Shown here one piece after another: positions 21,865-25,144 of a stretch of DNA of 32,686 nucleotides. A program made the translations under genes and the position numbers. Source of the DNA: Bacteroidia bacterium (GTDB lineage: Bacteria > Bacteroidota > Bacteroidia > NS11-12g > UBA955); assembly GCA_023258655.1 (NCBI GenBank), contig JALQWO010000003.1, positions 2,659 through 35,344 on the forward strand, given 5' to 3'. Under the pieces are notes generated by a model. That model had not been told where the DNA came from. It did not search any database and was given only the letters and a program-made list of their open reading frames with translations. Position 1 is the first letter of the stretch; each line of letters begins with the position of its first letter.

Positions 21865-21872
21865 TACCTTTG
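21865..21872 (+). promoter_or_regulatory. -7 promoter box TACCTTTG in front of the nonulosonic-acid operon
   Basis: Perfect TAnnTTTG, followed by the spacer AAAATC (6 nt) and the ATG at 21879. The tracked TTG start at 21870 lies inside the box. Confidence 0.5.
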
Positions 21873-21878
21873 AAAATC

Positions 21879-22619
21879 ATGTACGCGTTTATCCAAGCCC
21901 GTATGGGCTCTTCGCGATTGCCAGGCAAAATGTCTATGACCTTGCCCGATGGCAAAACCCTGCTCGAAGCGGTGATTGGTAGACTCGCGCCCCATGATGT
22001 AACACCCGTACTATTAACCACAAAGCAGCCGGCCGACGACGCCCTGGCATCCATGGCCGCACGCTACAACCTACCCGTATTCAGGGGTGATGAAGAGGAT
22101 GTTCTCAGTCGATTTGCCGAAGCCAGCGAAGTGTTCAACGTTCCAGAAAACGACTTCGTGTTGCGCATCTGTGCCGACAACCCCTACCTGAGTCATTACA
22201 TCATTGATCAAACCCTACGCACTTGCCAGCAATTGCCAGAAAATGACTACATCACTTTGGGCCACGGAGGCAAGCCAGGCATCAAACACCATACGGGTAT
22301 TTTTGTTGAAGCAGTCAAGCCAAAAGCGCTGAAAACACTCATGCCACTGCAAAACGACTGGTACAATGAGCATGTTACCATCGGGCTCTATGAAAACCCC
22401 AACAAATACAAGATTCTGATTCAAGAAATTCCAGCGGAATGGCACCCCGATTTTGAGAAAATTCGGTTAACCATTGATGACATAGATGATTGGAATTTTT
22501 GCCTAAAGACCTACCCTTCATTGGCTCCTCTCGACTTCCCTCAACAGCGAAAACTGCTGCTAAGTGAAAAAAGTTGGGTAACTTTGATGGAAAATCAAAT
22601 CAACAAATACCAGAAATAA
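21879..22619 (+). CDS. SpsF-type cytidylyltransferase (CTP_transf_3 family); candidate CMP-nonulosonate synthetase
   Basis: Contains MYAFIQARMGSSRLPGKM, RGDEEDVLSRF, ICADNPY and IRLTIDDIDDWNF, the pattern of SpsF-like acylneuraminate cytidylyltransferase-family proteins. It lies immediately upstream of the NeuB homolog, as in the B. subtilis spsE/spsF pairing. Confidence 0.8.
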   Translation: MYAFIQARMGSSRLPGKMSMTLPDGKTLLEAVIGRLAPHDVTPVLLTTKQPADDALASMAARYNLPVFRGDEEDVLSRFAEASEVFNVPENDFVLRICADNPYLSHYIIDQTLRTCQQLPENDYITLGHGGKPGIKHHTGIFVEAVKPKALKTLMPLQNDWYNEHVTIGLYENPNKYKILIQEIPAEWHPDFEKIRLTIDDIDDWNFCLKTYPSLAPLDFPQQRKLLLSEKSWVTLMENQINKYQK

Positions 22620-22622
22620 CGC

Positions 22623-23672
22623 ATGTCGCAACACCAGCATACTTATATCATCGGAGAAATCGGACAGAACCACAACGGATCCGTAGACATTGCCAAACTC
22701 ATCATCGATGCTGCGGCAAGACCCGTTCGCGACGACCTGTTCGATATGGACTTGCCTCGCATGGACGCCGTAAAACTCACCAAACGCGATTTGGCACAAG
22801 AATTATCGGCATCCCAAATGTCGCGCGAGTACAACTCTCCCCATTCCTTTGGCAAAACATATGGTGAACATCGCGCCAAATTGGAATTGAACGATGAACA
22901 ACATTTTGAATTATACCAATATGCAAAGTCCCATGGACTGGATTTTGTAGAGACGCTGTGTGCCATCGGATGCCTGAGCATGACCAAATATTTCATGCCA
23001 GACCGTCTCAAAGTAGCCAGTCGCGACCTAACCAATTTACCCTTACTCAGTGCATTGGCAGAAACCAAAATACCCATCATTTTATCAACAGGAATGGGCG
23101 GGTACAAGGAAATCGACGATGCGTTGGCAACGATCACGCGCTACCACAACCACATCTCCATTTTGCACTGCGTTTCCGAATACCCAACGCGACCCGAAAA
23201 CGCCAATCTCTTGTCGATCAAGGCATTGCAAAAGAAGTACCCTGAATACAGCGTAGGCTATTCTGACCATACTGTAGGCATCAGCGCGCCCGTTTCCGCC
23301 GTGGCCATGGGGGCAAAAATCATTGAAAAACACATCACTCTCGATCGTCGCATGAAGGGCACCGACCAAGCGGGATCCCTGGGTGTAGAGGGAATTCAAC
23401 GCATGGTGCGTGACATTCGATTGATTGAACGATCCATGGGTGTTGAAGATGTATTTATTGCCGATTCCACAGTGTCAGCCAAACACAAATTGGAGCGCTC
23501 CATTGCAACAAATCGAGAAATCAAAGCTGGCGAAATTATCCAAGCATCAGATTTACATTTATTGTCGCCCGGAGACGGTTTCAAGTGGCATGAAATAGAC
23601 AAAGTGGTTGGCAAAAAGGCATTGGCTCCTATTCCCGCCGATGAAATCATCTACCCACAACACATTTCTTAA
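22623..23672 (+). CDS. NeuB-family nonulosonate synthase with a C-terminal SAF domain; resembles the 9-phosphate-forming (NANS / KDN-9-P synthase) branch
   Basis: Contains IIGEIGQNHNGSVDIAK, YNSPHSFGKTYGEHRAKLELNDEQ, ILSTGM, GYSDHT, IEKHITLDRRMKGTDQAGSL and a SAF-like tail. Several of these resemble human NANS as I recall it (EIGQNHQG, SWGKTYGEHK, KGSDHSASL). Confidence 0.88.
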   Translation: MSQHQHTYIIGEIGQNHNGSVDIAKLIIDAAARPVRDDLFDMDLPRMDAVKLTKRDLAQELSASQMSREYNSPHSFGKTYGEHRAKLELNDEQHFELYQYAKSHGLDFVETLCAIGCLSMTKYFMPDRLKVASRDLTNLPLLSALAETKIPIILSTGMGGYKEIDDALATITRYHNHISILHCVSEYPTRPENANLLSIKALQKKYPEYSVGYSDHTVGISAPVSAVAMGAKIIEKHITLDRRMKGTDQAGSLGVEGIQRMVRDIRLIERSMGVEDVFIADSTVSAKHKLERSIATNREIKAGEIIQASDLHLLSPGDGFKWHEIDKVVGKKALAPIPADEIIYPQHIS

Positions 23673-23693
23673 TTCACTTTACAATAGAAAGCG

Positions 23694-24209
23694 ATGATTC
23701 AACAACTGTTGCCCAAATTGGTACTCACCGACATTGATGGCGTTTGGACAGATGCGGGAATGTATTACGATCAAACGGGTAATGAATGGAAAAAGTTCAG
23801 CACTAGCGACAGTGCGGGGGTACTATTTTGCAAGCACCTTTCGATTCCTGTGGGCATCATCACGGGAGAAGACACGGCCATTGTGAAACGCCGGGCAGAA
23901 AAGTTAAAAATTGACCACCTCTATCAGGGCATCCAAGACAAACTGTCTGTGGCCAGTGCATTGTGCACTCAGCTGGGGATATCATTGTCAGAAGTGGCCT
24001 ACATCGGCGATGATTTGGGCGATGTTCCGCTGCTGAAGGCTGTTGGTTTTTCTGCCGCACCCGCCAATGCGCCTGAATACATCCGCAACATGGTGCACCT
24101 AACTACAACCAAAGCGGGGGGAGACGGTGCATTCCGCGAATTTGTGGAAGAACTATTACATCGCGCAGGCGTTTTGCCGACCGTTTTGGCACACTATCAA
24201 ATTGGATAA
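23694..24209 (+). CDS. KdsC/YrbI-family HAD phosphatase; candidate nonulosonate-9-phosphate (KDN-9-P or Neu5Ac-9-P) phosphatase
   Basis: 171 aa. Contains [30 protein letters not shown] and [11 protein letters not shown], the C0-type HAD pattern of the KdsC family. Confidence 0.88.
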
Positions 24210-25144
24210 TGCTGCAAAATTTGTTTCAATCGGCCCTCACAATAGGAAAAATCCTGGTCAAAAGCCAATTTGGCCTTCCCCAATTCCGTGCTCCTGAAAA
24301 ATCGGTGGTGGTTATCGCGAACGGGCCTTCTGCTCGATCTTTCATCGATCGGTGTGAGGAAGAGGGAATCGAATCGTTGAAACAAAAAGGATTGGCGTTT
24401 TTTGCCGTCAACAAATTCAGCTGTCAGCCCGAGTTTTTTCAGTTAAAACCCAAGTATTACCTCATGTTGGATATGTACTTCTTCGAATTCTCCAAAGAAG
24501 TATTCGAAAAGCCGTCCTTGCATCCCATCGCCCAATACAAACCCGATTTTGAAAAAACACAGCGGATGATCAATGAGACTTGGGAAGCCCTACAAAAAGT
24601 GGATTGGCCCATGGTTTTTTTCGTACCCCAACTGTATCGGAAAAGTTACATCGTTAACAACCTAAACAACCCAAATATCCAATTCGTCACATACAATTAT
24701 ACAGTAATCAAAGGTGCTGAAACATTCCGTAACCGCATGTATGATTGGCGTCTGGGTAGTCCACAGTGTGAAAACGTGGTGAATTCATGCATCTTCAACG
24801 CGATGCAAGCTGGATTTGAAAACATCTACATCACGGGGGTAGACCACGACTTCCACATCAACATCATGGTAGACTCAGACAACACCATCATCCGAACAGA
24901 GTCGCACTTTTATGCCGATGAAAACAAGAAACACCCCTTGTTGAAACAAGAACCCGATGGCACCACCGGCAAAATTCGATTGCATGAACTATTTCTTAGT
25001 TTGGTGAAGGTGCATACCGGTTATGATGAAACGGCCCGCTACGCCAAACACAGTCAGAAACGAGTTGTAAACCTCACCGAAGGGGGATACGTGGATGCCT
25101 TTGAACGAATGTCGCTGGGCGATTTCTTTCGTCAGTTTTCCTGA
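24209..25144 (+). CDS. Uncharacterised protein; candidate CMP-nonulosonate transferase (GT42 CstII-like or Maf/DUF115-like motifs)
   Basis: 311 aa. The start overlaps the previous stop (TAATG). VVVIANGPSARSF, FAVNKF and LKPKYYLMLD resemble the GNGPS...KPDY..D pattern of CstII and MptE-like/Maf proteins. GFENIYITGVDHDF resembles GYKEIYLSGIDFY of CstII. I am confident it is a real CDS. The function is inferred, at about 0.4. Confidence 0.8.
   Translation: MLQNLFQSALTIGKILVKSQFGLPQFRAPEKSVVVIANGPSARSFIDRCEEEGIESLKQKGLAFFAVNKFSCQPEFFQLKPKYYLMLDMYFFEFSKEVFEKPSLHPIAQYKPDFEKTQRMINETWEALQKVDWPMVFFVPQLYRKSYIVNNLNNPNIQFVTYNYTVIKGAETFRNRMYDWRLGSPQCENVVNSCIFNAMQAGFENIYITGVDHDFHINIMVDSDNTIIRTESHFYADENKKHPLLKQEPDGTTGKIRLHELFLSLVKVHTGYDETARYAKHSQKRVVNLTEGGYVDAFERMSLGDFFRQFS

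What the first reader, a model, noticed from the sequence alone, without database searches (positions are those of the whole stretch)
21865..25144. Compact phosphate-route nonulosonic acid operon (KDN or sialic-acid-like) with no amino-sugar branch
Four genes sit behind one perfect TAnnTTTG box with gaps of 3 nt and 21 nt and a 1-nt overlap (TAATG at 24207-24211). They are an SpsF-type cytidylyltransferase, a NeuB/SAF synthase, a KdsC-type HAD phosphatase and an unknown 311-aa protein. The synthase motifs (EIGQNHNG, YNSPHSFGKTYGEHRAKLE, MKGTDQAGSL) look closer to animal NANS and the Bacteroides thetaiotaomicron KDN-9-P synthase type than to classical NeuB, as far as I can recall those sequences. 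A dedicated phosphatase next to the synthase implies a sugar-6-phosphate substrate and a 9-phosphate intermediate. The window contains no NeuC or ManNAc-forming epimerase and no Pse/Leg-type aminotransferase, dehydratase or acetyltransferase. KDN made from mannose-6-P and PEP is therefore the most parsimonious product. As far as I know, the only characterised bacterial precedent is the B. thetaiotaomicron BT1713/BT1714 pair, and the acceptor glycan and transferase for bacterial KDN are not established. An SpsF-type activating enzyme in place of a canonical NeuA-type one is also atypical.
Basis: partly seen in the sequence, partly recalled or inferred. Interest (0 to 1): 0.72.

Follow-up and report, generated by a model that had tools for sequence, protein, structure and literature searches.

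The report
KDN sugar operon with candidate transferase
This is an ordinary member of a gene set, widespread in Bacteroidota, that makes the sialic-acid-like sugar KDN by the phosphate route, and its "unknown" fourth gene belongs to a large unnamed protein family that is a good candidate for the missing enzyme that attaches KDN to a surface glycan.

Summary
Four tightly packed + strand genes lie at 21879-25144.

- **Genes.** They encode an SpsF-type cytidylyltransferase (CT), a NeuB+SAF synthase (SYN), a HAD phosphatase (PASE) and a 311-aa protein ("GT4").
- **Product.** PASE passes NCBIfam's equivalog model for KDN-9-phosphate phosphatase (260.8 bits, cutoff 180). It is 65% identical to B. thetaiotaomicron BT1713. 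SYN is 64.5% identical to the synthase beside that phosphatase in a B. thetaiotaomicron-type locus. SYN misses the NeuB and PseI cutoffs.
- **No amino-sugar branch.** The rest of the window is housekeeping genes.
- **Not rare.** The order CT-SYN-PASE recurs in almost all of 80 Bacteroidota loci and in B. thetaiotaomicron. The SpsF-type CT is therefore the rule, not an oddity.
- **What is new.** GT4 is a stand-alone PF01973 (Maf/DUF115) domain protein carrying Cst-II-like donor-site motifs. Its family has about 1,100 clusters at E<=1e-30, all unnamed. In 7 of 13 contexts examined it sits inside KDN, Pse-type or other nonulosonate clusters. In one locus it is fused to the KDN-cluster cytidylyltransferase.
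- **Fifth part.** A convergent Wzx-like flippase gene (25161-26672) belongs to the module.

GT4 is best read as the CMP-KDN-dependent transferase. That step is inferred, not shown.

The parts
21865..21872 (+). TACCTTTG, a Bacteroidota -7-type promoter box (TAnnTTTG), 6 nt upstream of the ATG of the first gene
   Evidence: Sequence. Invariant in window and L001-L008, including the divergent L007. The motif is not enriched in the window overall: 21 found against 22 expected. Promoter function is inferred.
21879..22619 (+). CT: SpsF-type cytidylyltransferase (246 aa), proposed CMP-KDN synthetase
   Evidence: PF02348, 63.6 bits. Best PDB match is 6OEW 'cytidylyltransferase', E 2e-16; KdsB matches are weak and no NeuA match appears. 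31.7% identical to the CT of the B. thetaiotaomicron-type locus. The same family lies upstream of SYN in 78/80 loci. Only 27 bits to the NeuA-type P. parvum CMP-Kdn synthetase.
22623..23672 (+). SYN: NeuB+SAF synthase (349 aa), proposed KDN-9-phosphate synthase (BT1714 orthologue)
   Evidence: PF03102, 217 bits, and PF08666. Below the NeuB cutoff (259 against 399.65) and the PseI cutoff (197 against 340). 64.5% identical to the B. thetaiotaomicron-type synthase. Shares phospho-sugar clade motifs with P. parvum KDN9PS and NANS. More than 7,900 homologues; some are named KDN 9-phosphate synthase by JGI.
23694..24209 (+). PASE: C0-type HAD phosphatase (171 aa), KDN-9-phosphate phosphatase (BT1713 orthologue)
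   Evidence: NCBIfam NF058599 equivalog, 260.8 bits against cutoff 180; KdsC equivalog, 129 against 208. PDB 3E81/4HGO, E 7e-63, with Glu56 and Lys67 conserved. 64.9% identity.
24209..25144 (+). GT4: stand-alone PF01973 (Maf_flag10/DUF115)-like protein (311 aa), proposed CMP-KDN-dependent glycosyltransferase
   Evidence: PF01973 at 25.1 bits (below cutoff), but 31 of 33 family members hit it. Family profile against PDB: Cst-II E 0.005, Cst-I 0.027. Invariant GPS, VN, GxD and HFY motifs. AF2 pLDDT 88.6. Foldseek best-probability hit is MptE 8SD5. Family members sit in KDN, Pse-type and other NeuB clusters, and one is fused to the CT in L088. No hydrophobic segment.
25161..26672 (-). TM504: divergent Wzx-like (MOP superfamily) flippase, convergent with the operon
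   Evidence: At least 9 hydrophobic segments. No Pfam hit itself, but it is 35% identical to L084:6480-7988, which hits PF01943 at 46.7 bits. Relatives lie in 39/80 KDN loci. Syntenic in L001-L007.
26675..26682 (-). TACCTTTG box 2 nt upstream of the flippase ATG
   Evidence: Function inferred.

Best explanation

Proposed mechanism:
1. SYN condenses mannose-6-phosphate, supplied by central metabolism, with PEP to give KDN-9-phosphate.
2. PASE removes the 9-phosphate.
3. The SpsF-type CT activates KDN with CTP to give CMP-KDN.
4. GT4, a soluble stand-alone Maf/GT42-like domain protein, transfers KDN from CMP-KDN to a lipid-linked glycan at the cytoplasmic face of the membrane.
5. The convergent Wzx-like protein flips the KDN-bearing unit for display on LPS, capsule or protein O-glycan.

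Steps 1 and 2 rest on about 65% identity to the characterised B. thetaiotaomicron enzymes and on a curated equivalog model (about 0.8). Step 3 rests on family membership and conserved position (about 0.7). Steps 4 and 5 are inferred from motifs, gene neighbourhood and one gene fusion (about 0.55). The acceptor is unknown.
For: **Phosphatase.** NF058599, 260.8 bits against cutoff 180. 3E81 at E 7e-63, with Glu56 and Lys67 kept.

**Synthase.**
- 64.5% identical to the synthase beside a phosphatase that differs from the PDB BT1713 sequence at one of 152 positions.
- Below the NeuB and PseI cutoffs.
- Shared phospho-sugar motifs.
- The B. thetaiotaomicron enzyme uses Man-6-P, Km 1.4 mM (PMC6200933 Table 2).

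**Triad.** CT-SYN-PASE keeps the same order and strand. The CT family is in 78, PASE in 77 and SYN in 80 of 80 loci. A NeuC-like epimerase is in only 4 of 80 loci and none is in the window.

**GT4.**
- PF01973 in 31 of 33 members.
- Cst-II at E 0.005 over residues 31-215 against 3-186. The GNGPS, VN/CN, D/N-P and IY(I/L)xG(I/V/A)D positions line up.
- PF01973 is the Maf domain, described as structurally related to GT42 Cst-II. Maf proteins transfer nonulosonic acids (bioRxiv 10.1101/2020.06.03.131540).
- Family members lie within KDN, Pse-type or other NeuB+CT clusters in the window clade, L061, L085, L086, L088, L092 and L093.
- L088 encodes a GT4-domain+CT fusion followed by SYN and PASE.

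**Flippase.**
Against: - No enzyme was assayed and no KDN was measured.
- At about 65% identity, the preference for Man-6-P over ManNAc-6-P could differ.
- The window GT4 protein itself is below the Pfam cutoff.
- hhalign against Cst-II aligns only 19 columns, probability 67%.
- Foldseek gives no PDB hit at E<=1e-3. Its best-probability match is the archaeal kinase MptE, not a glycosyltransferase, and Cst-II is not in the top 50.
- Two of 13 GT4-family contexts (L090, L091) show no nonulosonate genes nearby.
- In 72 of 80 KDN loci no GT4 homologue lies within 6 kb. If GT4 is the transferase, it is one of several solutions.
- The rest of the genome is unseen. A neuC, nanE or second kdsC elsewhere cannot be excluded.
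Confidence: 0.75

Rival explanations
1. The same enzymes make Neu5Ac, or another 9-phosphorylated nonulosonate, from ManNAc-6-P, as animal NANS, NANP and CMAS do. The ManNAc-6-P would come from genes elsewhere in the genome.
For: The closest non-Bacteroidota relative found is human NANS: 34% identity and 197 bits, against 111-143 bits for NeuB-type proteins. Human NANS accepts both Man-6-P and ManNAc-6-P (PMC6200933 Table 2). The rest of the genome is unseen.
Against: - PASE passes the KDN-9-P phosphatase equivalog.
- SYN is 64.5% identical to the B. thetaiotaomicron-type enzyme, whose reported substrate is Man-6-P.
- No NeuC, GNE or NanE-like gene is in the window. A NeuC-like gene occurs in only 4 of 80 triad loci, two of which also carry a separate classical NeuB paralogue.
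Confidence: 0.12
2. The phosphatase is the housekeeping Kdo-8-P phosphatase KdsC for LPS, and the synthase is a classical NeuB, LegI or PseI acting on an unphosphorylated sugar. The adjacency would then be coincidental.
For: PASE passes the TIGR01670 KdsC-family subfamily model (137.7 bits, cutoff 106.95). JGI names many relatives 'KDO 8-P phosphatase'.
Against: - PASE is below the KdsC equivalog cutoff (129 against 208) and above the KDN-9-P one.
- PASE scores 215 bits to BT1713 and 88-107 bits to most true KdsC structures; the best other match, a 'probable YrbI family phosphatase' (3MN1), scores 127.6.
- SYN-PASE adjacency holds in 77 of 80 loci.
- SYN fails the NeuB and PseI cutoffs.
Confidence: 0.03
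3. GT4 is not a glycosyltransferase. It is an MptE-like nucleotide-dependent kinase or pyrophosphokinase, or another accessory enzyme such as a nonulosonate-modifying or nucleotide-sugar-processing enzyme. The KDN transferase would then be encoded elsewhere.
For: - The best-probability Foldseek match is M. jannaschii MptE HPPK (8SD5; probability 0.99, TM 0.30/0.41). Cst-II is not in the top 50.
- The Pfam family name is MptE-like.
- hhalign to Cst-II is short.
- In L086 the domain is fused to a PseH-like GNAT in a cluster where no PseG is evident. A biosynthetic role there is conceivable.
Against: - The KDN route needs no extra kinase or nucleotidase.
- The family accompanies three chemically different nonulosonate pathways. 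That fits a step common to all of them, namely transfer from the CMP-sugar.
- It is fused to the CMP-sugar synthetase in L088.
- It is often next to Wzx or GT2 genes.
- Cst-II-like donor motifs are invariant in the family.
- Bacterial PF01973 proteins of known function are nonulosonate transferases.
Confidence: 0.2

Closest known systems
B. thetaiotaomicron KDN pathway (BT1713 phosphatase, BT1714 synthase; Wang et al. 2008) inside a capsule locus
   Same: The same three genes in the same order (SpsF-type CT, NeuB+SAF synthase, HAD phosphatase). SYN is 64.5%, PASE 64.9% and CT 31.7% identical. Same motifs, and the same 11-residue Bacteroidota-specific insertion in the synthase.
   Different: - The B. 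thetaiotaomicron-type triad is embedded in a large capsule locus. That locus has Wzx, EpsG, an initiating transferase, a PF07388 polysialyltransferase-like gene and a PF04464 gene.
- The window module is a 5-gene island between adenylate kinase and an Omp28-like gene.
- The window module uses a PF01973-like protein instead. No homologue of the B. thetaiotaomicron-type polyST or Glyphos_transf genes occurs in the 80 loci.
Animal NANS / NANP / CMAS sialic acid pathway
   Same: Phosphorylated hexose + PEP, a 9-phosphate intermediate and a dedicated HAD phosphatase. Synthase signature motifs are shared, and SYN scores 197 bits to NANS.
   Different: 34% identity only. The animal activating enzyme is NeuA/CMAS-type, whereas here it is SpsF-type.
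[quoted passage not shown]
   Same: A characterised Man-6-P-specific synthase that carries the same SxGxTYGxH and WKGTDH motifs.
   Different: Only 29% identity and 111 bits. It has no SAF domain. Its CMP-Kdn synthetase is NeuA-type and scores 27 bits to the window CT.
Maf flagellin nonulosonate glycosyltransferases (PF01973) and GT42 sialyltransferases Cst-I/Cst-II
   Same: GT4-family members hit PF01973. The family profile hits Cst-II and Cst-I with aligned GNGPS and IYLxGxD motifs. Both sit beside nonulosonate biosynthesis genes.
   Different: - GT4 is a stand-alone protein of about 290-310 aa. It lacks the extra domains of the roughly 600-aa Maf proteins (5MU5 is 666 aa).
- Similarity is marginal (Cst-II E 0.005; Maf E 1.1), and Foldseek does not confirm it.
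- As far as I know, Bacteroidota have no flagella, so the acceptor could not be flagellin.
Tannerella forsythia Pse/Leg transferases of the general O-glycosylation system (PMC5420450)
   Same: A Bacteroidota enzyme that adds a terminal nonulosonate to a surface glycan and is encoded beside the biosynthesis genes.
   Different: Those enzymes are GT-B/TagB-type proteins of about 445 aa, not PF01973-like. I had recalled them as DUF115 proteins; the paper shows otherwise.

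Membership tests
KDN-9-phosphate phosphatase (NCBIfam NF058599, BT1713 type) | Score above the curated equivalog cutoff | tested here: met
   260.8 bits against cutoff 180. The KdsC equivalog NF007019 gives 129.3 against 208.
KDN-9-phosphate phosphatase (NCBIfam NF058599, BT1713 type) | HAD nucleophile motif DxDGV and the BT1713 residues Glu56 and Lys67. Their role in specificity is from my recollection of Lu 2009 and Daughtry 2013, which were not readable here. | tested here: met
   [16 protein letters not shown] and AEKLK align with BT1713 residues 8-17, E56 and K67. The PDB mutant 4HGQ differs from wild type exactly at E56.
KDN-9-phosphate phosphatase (NCBIfam NF058599, BT1713 type) | Catalytic preference for KDN-9-P over Kdo-8-P | not testable with these tools
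   Needs an enzyme assay.
KDN-9-phosphate synthase (BT1714 type, EC 2.5.1.132) | NeuB TIM-barrel plus C-terminal SAF domain | tested here: met
   PF03102, 217.2 bits; PF08666, 42.6 bits.
KDN-9-phosphate synthase (BT1714 type, EC 2.5.1.132) | Orthology to the B. thetaiotaomicron enzyme encoded next to BT1713 | tested here: met
   64.5% identity over 344 aa to the synthase adjacent to a phosphatase that matches BT1713 at 151 of 152 positions. That synthase is taken to be BT1714 or a strain variant; the VPI-5482 record itself was not available.
KDN-9-phosphate synthase (BT1714 type, EC 2.5.1.132) | Signature motifs shared with phospho-sugar-using synthases and absent from NeuB, PseI and SpsE | tested here: met
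   HSFGKTYGEHR and MKGTDQ align with P. parvum NSYGDTYGAHR and WKGTDH, and with NANS HSWGKTYGEHK and WKGSDH.
KDN-9-phosphate synthase (BT1714 type, EC 2.5.1.132) | Man-6-P preferred over ManNAc-6-P or ManNAc | not testable with these tools
   Needs an enzyme assay.
Classical NeuB / PseI (NCBIfam TIGR03569, TIGR03586) | Score above the equivalog cutoff | tested here: not met
   259 against 399.65, and 197.2 against 340.25.
CMP-nonulosonate synthetase, SpsF-like branch of CTP_transf_3 | PF02348 above the gathering score, with the N-terminal ARxGSxRLPGK motif | tested here: met
   63.6 bits against 22.6. IQARMGSSRLPGK is present. Best PDB match is 6OEW, E 2e-16.
CMP-nonulosonate synthetase, SpsF-like branch of CTP_transf_3 | Conserved position directly upstream of the KDN-9-P synthase | tested here: met
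   78 of 80 loci and the B. thetaiotaomicron-type locus.
CMP-nonulosonate synthetase, SpsF-like branch of CTP_transf_3 | CTP + KDN -> CMP-KDN activity | not testable with these tools
   I found no assay of this branch in the papers I could read.
NeuA/CMAS-type CMP-sialic acid synthetase | Full-length similarity to NeuA-type enzymes | tested here: not met
   No NeuA structure among PDB hits at E<=0.01. Only 27 bits over the N-terminal 105 aa to the P. parvum CMP-Kdn synthetase.
PF01973 (Maf_flag10 / DUF115 / MptE-like) | Pfam gathering score | tested here: inconclusive
   The window protein gives 25.1 bits against 34.6. 31 of 33 family members match at E<=0.01, best 8.7e-11. The L061 homologue gives 36.1 bits, above the cutoff.
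GT42-like sialyltransferase fold (Cst-II / Maf central domain) | Donor-site motifs GNGPS, (V/C)N and IY(L/I)xGxD in register | tested here: met
   Invariant G39 P40 S41, V67 N68, G210 and D212. They align to Cst-II residues 8-12, 30-31 and 148-154 in the profile match, E 0.005.
GT42-like sialyltransferase fold (Cst-II / Maf central domain) | Three-dimensional similarity to Cst-II or Maf | tested here: inconclusive
   The AF2 model is confident (pLDDT 88.6, pTM 0.87). Foldseek gives no hit at E<=1e-3. The best-probability hit is MptE 8SD5, and Cst-II is not in the top 50. hhalign covers 19 columns, probability 67%.
GT42-like sialyltransferase fold (Cst-II / Maf central domain) | CMP-nonulosonate-dependent transfer | not testable with these tools
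   Supported only by context and by the L088 fusion.
Wzx / MOP flippase (PF01943) | Pfam match and a polytopic membrane protein | tested here: inconclusive
   TM504 has no Pfam hit even at E<=1. It has at least 9 hydrophobic segments. It is 35% identical to a PF01943-positive protein (46.7 bits) in L084.

The most novel reading that the evidence does not exclude
The 311-aa protein represents a large, unnamed family of stand-alone Maf/GT42-like enzymes: 1,097 clusters at E<=1e-30 and about 6,000 at E<=1e-3. On this reading they are the nonulosonate transferases of non-flagellated Bacteroidota. In this locus, and in the natural transferase-cytidylyltransferase fusion of L088, the enzyme would be the missing bacterial KDN-transferase, working with a dedicated Wzx flippase to cap a surface glycan.
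Probability: 0.5. Interest if true: 0.6.

Novelty: new member of a known kind. Interest (0 to 1): 0.4.

Why it matters
- KDN has been reported as the second most abundant nonulosonic acid in granular-sludge biofilm matrix (PMC10483923).
- The only characterised bacterial pathway is the B. thetaiotaomicron one. Neither the acceptor glycan nor the transferase is known there (PMC12413058).
- This locus adds nothing to the biosynthetic chemistry. It is an orthologue of a widespread and partly annotated triad.
- It does offer the smallest version of the system, with one candidate transferase and one flippase attached.
- A natural fusion of that candidate to the activating enzyme turns "what attaches KDN in bacteria?" into a bench experiment.
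- The work also corrects database names. Close homologues of the synthase are labelled "shikimate dehydrogenase", and homologues of the phosphatase are labelled "KDO 8-P phosphatase".

Tried and rejected
1. **Foldseek against PDB.** I expected Cst-II or Maf for the GT4 model. There was no hit at E<=1e-3. The top rows are TIM-barrel noise and MptE. The result is inconclusive rather than supportive.
2. **hhalign of the GT4 family against Cst-II.** Only a 19-column match.
3. **My recollection about Tannerella forsythia.** I had recalled its Pse/Leg transferases as DUF115 proteins. The paper says GT-B/TagB, so I dropped that precedent.
4. **Primary papers not held.** Wang 2008, Lu 2009 and Daughtry 2013 could not be read. 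BT1714 kinetics are cited second-hand from PMC6200933, and the roles of Glu56 and Lys67 are from memory.
5. **BT1714 sequence.** The PMC6200933 supplements do not contain it. I reached a B. thetaiotaomicron-type locus through the BT1713 protein cluster instead.
6. **NJ tree of synthases.** The Bacteroidota clade, including the B. thetaiotaomicron-type sequence, is recovered on a long stem, but bootstrap support is only 57%. NANS and P. parvum do not join it with support. I rely on identity and motifs, not on the tree.
7. **TAnnTTTG enrichment.** None.
8. **Taxon names for GT4-family representatives.** None are recorded.
9. **B. thetaiotaomicron-type polyST and Glyphos_transf homologues in the 80 loci.** None found.

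Full report
**1. What is in the sequence**

Four + strand ORFs occupy 21870/21879-22619, 22623-23672, 23694-24209 and 24209-25144. Pfam finds CTP_transf_3 (63.6 bits), NeuB (217 bits) plus SAF, HAD hydrolase families, and a sub-threshold PF01973 'MptE-like' match (25.1 bits against 34.6) for the fourth protein.

The quoted synthase motifs are present. TACCTTTG lies at 21865-21872. The mechanical ORF start (TTG 21870) overlaps that box. ATG 21879 gives MYAFIQARMGSSRLPGK, which matches the homologues, and is the likely start.

TAnnTTTG occurs 21 times in the window against 22.2 +/- 4.3 expected, so the motif alone is not evidence. This copy is invariant across the window and eight related loci, including L007, where the flanks have diverged. 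Two further + strand copies lie inside the first gene, at 22298 and 22579.

The other large ORFs of the window are housekeeping, transport or type IX secretion cargo genes. They include MoaA, a GyrB/ParE-like protein, AdoHcy hydrolase, shikimate dehydrogenase, FeoB, RpoD, MnmA, adenylate kinase, enoyl-CoA hydratase, PAP2 and ECF sigma. No epimerase, aminotransferase, dehydratase or acetyltransferase of the Neu, Leg or Pse routes is present.

**2. The phosphatase and the synthase are KDN-type**

The phosphatase scores 260.8 bits on NCBIfam NF058599, the KDN-9-phosphatase equivalog built on the Bacteroides enzyme (cutoff 180). It scores only 129 on the KdsC equivalog (cutoff 208). Against the PDB it matches BT1713 (3E81/3E84/3E8M/4HGO) at E 7e-63. 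True KdsC structures mostly score 88-107 bits. Glu56 and Lys67 are conserved.

The synthase scores below the NeuB cutoff (259 against 399.65) and the PseI cutoff (197 against 340).

To compare it with the characterised system, I searched with the BT1713 sequence, listed its 90% cluster, and fetched a contig that carries a B. thetaiotaomicron phosphatase. That phosphatase differs from the PDB sequence at one position. The genes beside it run CT (249 aa), NeuB+SAF (346 aa), phosphatase.

| Window protein | Identity to the B. thetaiotaomicron-type protein |
|---|---|
| SYN | 64.5% over 344 aa |
| PASE | 64.9% over 148 aa |
| CT | 31.7% over 265 aa |

All other comparators are far lower:

| Comparator | Identity | Bits |
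|---|---|---|
| A NeuB from another cluster (L085) | 32% | 143 |
| B. subtilis SpsE | not noted | 126 |
| N. meningitidis NeuB | 28% | 115 |
| P. parvum Kdn-9-P synthetase (sequence from PMC6200933 supplement) | 29% | 111 |

The alignment shows [HN]S[FWY]G[KRD]TYG[EA]H[RK] and [MW]KG[TS]D[QH] in four sequences: the window enzyme, the B. thetaiotaomicron-type enzyme, NANS and the Man-6-P-specific P. parvum enzyme. NeuB, SpsE and a Pse-cluster synthase lack them. The B. thetaiotaomicron synthase is reported to use Man-6-P, Km 1.4 mM (PMC6200933 Table 2). KDN is the best-supported product.

**3. The triad is common, and the SpsF-type CT is the norm**

The synthase has more than 7,900 homologues at E<=1e-10. 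The top 120 are at least 70% identical, and JGI names some of them '3-deoxy-D-glycero-D-galacto-nononate 9-phosphate synthase'. I fetched eighty Bacteroidota genome loci, covering Flavobacteriales, Cytophagales, Sphingobacteriales, Bacteroidales and Prolixibacteraceae.

- CT-SYN-PASE lies in the same order and strand in nearly all of them.
- By iterative local search, the CT family is in 78, PASE in 77 and SYN in 80 of 80 loci.
- The CT is the fastest-evolving member everywhere. The B. thetaiotaomicron-type CT is 33-47% identical to the others, and the window CT 30-38%.
- All are SpsF-like. The best PDB match is 6OEW, and no NeuA-type structure appears.
- The NeuA-type P. parvum CMP-Kdn synthetase scores only 27 bits to the window CT.
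- A NeuC-like epimerase occurs in only 4 of 80 loci.

The full five-gene synteny is confined to the window's own clade of freshwater metagenome-assembled genomes, L001-L008. It runs adk, then the divergent CT-SYN-PASE-GT4 operon, then the convergent membrane protein.

**4. The fourth gene**

It has 50 word-index homologues, all 'hypothetical'. In an alignment of 33 of them the invariant residues include G39-P40-S41, V67-N68, G210, D212 and H233-F234-Y235.

- 31 of 33 members hit PF01973.
- The family profile hits the GT42 sialyltransferases Cst-II (E 0.005, residues 31-215 against 3-186) and Cst-I (E 0.027). GNGPS, VN/CN and IY(I/L)xG(V/I)D are in register.
- PF01973 is the Maf_flag10/DUF115 domain. 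It is described as structurally related to Cst-II, and Maf proteins have been shown to transfer nonulosonic acids (bioRxiv 10.1101/2020.06.03.131540).
- The structural test was inconclusive. The AF2 model is confident (pLDDT 88.6, pTM 0.87), but Foldseek gives no PDB hit at E<=1e-3. Its best-probability match is the archaeal MptE kinase (probability 0.99, TM 0.30/0.41). hhalign to Cst-II covers 19 columns.
- A profile search of 1.84 billion representatives finds 6,031 proteins at E<=1e-3 and 1,097 at E<=1e-30. Nearly all of the best 150 are 265-320 aa. None of the sampled clusters carries a functional name.

**5. Genomic context of the family**

| Context | Arrangement |
|---|---|
| Window clade | Inside the KDN operon |
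| L061 | KDN triad, Wzx, homologue, methyltransferase |
| L088 | One 539-aa protein with the GT4 domain (residues 10-286, 300 bits) fused to the SpsF-type CT (residues 292-539), then SYN (68% to window) and PASE |
| L085 | Homologue, hexapeptide acetyltransferase, CT, NeuB |
| L086 | Fused to a GNAT inside a PseB/PseC-like cluster with CT and NeuB |
| L092 | Heads a PseB/PseC-like cluster with CT, acetyltransferase, NeuB and Wzx |
| L093 | CT, pyruvyl transferase, NeuB, unknown, homologue, GT2 |
| L084 | Wzx, homologue (contig ends) |
| L081, L082/83, L089 | Leg- or Pse-type genes 2-8 kb away |
| L090, L091 | No nonulosonate genes seen |

A family that travels with three chemically different nonulosonate pathways fits the step common to them all, which is transfer from the CMP-sugar. 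Its fusion in one case to the CMP-sugar synthetase points the same way. That is my preferred reading, at about 0.55. The MptE-like kinase or accessory-enzyme alternative stands at about 0.2.

Only L001-L007 and L061 among the 80 KDN loci carry a homologue within 6 kb. The B. thetaiotaomicron-type locus instead carries a PF07388 polysialyltransferase-like gene and a PF04464 gene. The transferase partner of the triad is therefore variable.

**6. The fifth gene**

The convergent 504-aa ORF (25161-26672) has at least 9 hydrophobic segments and no Pfam hit. It is 35% identical to a PF01943 (Wzx-type) protein that sits beside a GT4 homologue in L084, and 28% identical to the Wzx gene in L061. Relatives lie in 39 of 80 KDN loci. 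It has its own TACCTTTG box 2 nt before the ATG. I count it as part of the module.

**7. Verdict**

The operon is an ordinary orthologue of a known and widespread Bacteroidota system, not a rarity. The 'atypical' cytidylyltransferase is the standard one for that system.

What remains worth an experiment is the fourth gene. It is a candidate for the unknown bacterial KDN transferase, in a minimal module with its own flippase, and a natural fusion elsewhere backs the link. Nothing about enzyme specificity, the product or the acceptor is shown here. All of that is inference from homology and context.

Noticed in passing
window 21865-21881; 26670-26682 (- strand); 20480-20495 (- strand): TAnnTTTG boxes sit 2-6 nt from the start codons of three genes: CT, the flippase and a type IX secretion cargo gene. 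If these are -7 promoter elements, the mRNAs would be leaderless or nearly so.
   Followed up: partly
window 22298-22305 and 22579-22586 (+): Two further TAnnTTTG matches lie inside the cytidylyltransferase gene. The second is 36 nt upstream of the synthase ATG and could be an internal promoter.
   Followed up: no
L088:2943-4562: A natural 539-aa fusion of a GT4-family domain with the SpsF-type cytidylyltransferase, directly followed by a KDN-type synthase and phosphatase.
   Followed up: yes
L009:7056-7805, and the same position in 14 other loci (L010, L011, L013-L015, L018-L022, L024, L033, L035, L048): A conserved 249-aa protein with only a weak Methyltransf_24 hit is inserted between the synthase and the phosphatase in 15 of 80 KDN loci. 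It may be a KDN-modifying enzyme.
   Followed up: partly
L014:4332-5990 (also L011, L021, L022, L023, L028, L064): In these loci the plain cytidylyltransferase upstream of the synthase is replaced by a fusion of about 553 aa. A divergent NeuB-like domain (about 25% identical to SYN) is joined to a CTP_transf_3 domain.
   Followed up: partly
L081:6191-8861, L082/L083:6046-8861, L089:5130-8870, L090:4235-8834: In gut-type Bacteroidales contigs the GT4 homologue is always divergent from an Acetyltransf_5 + Acyltransferase pair, which looks like aminolipid biosynthesis genes. This synteny is recurrent and unexplained.
   Followed up: no
L061:1822-4233, L085:4602-7031, L091:3615-6116, L092:3270-4913: A large YfhO-like membrane protein lies near GT4 homologues in four unrelated loci.
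   Followed up: no
L087:6851-8110 and 11683-12708: In the B. thetaiotaomicron-type capsule locus the KDN triad is flanked by a PF04464 (TagB-like) gene, and two genes downstream lies a PF07388 polysialyltransferase-like gene. Both are alternative candidate KDN transferases in that species.
   Followed up: partly
proteins P0015, P0021, P0044; P0189 and others; locus L013: Public names look wrong. Synthase homologues of 73-91% identity are labelled 'shikimate dehydrogenase', and KDN-type phosphatases are labelled 'KDO 8-P phosphatase'. One locus is filed under Synechococcus and one protein under Sphingomonadales, probably through mis-binning.
   Followed up: no
window 22623-23672, residues about 31-45 of SYN: Bacteroidota KDN-type synthases, including the B. 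thetaiotaomicron-type one, carry an 11-residue insertion (RPVRDDLFDMDLPRM region). NANS, P. parvum, NeuB, SpsE and PseI-like sequences lack it.
   Followed up: partly
window 11894-16447 (-): A 1,517-aa type IX secretion cargo protein with an IgGFc-binding-like domain, seven PKD repeats and a CHU_C sorting signal.
   Followed up: no
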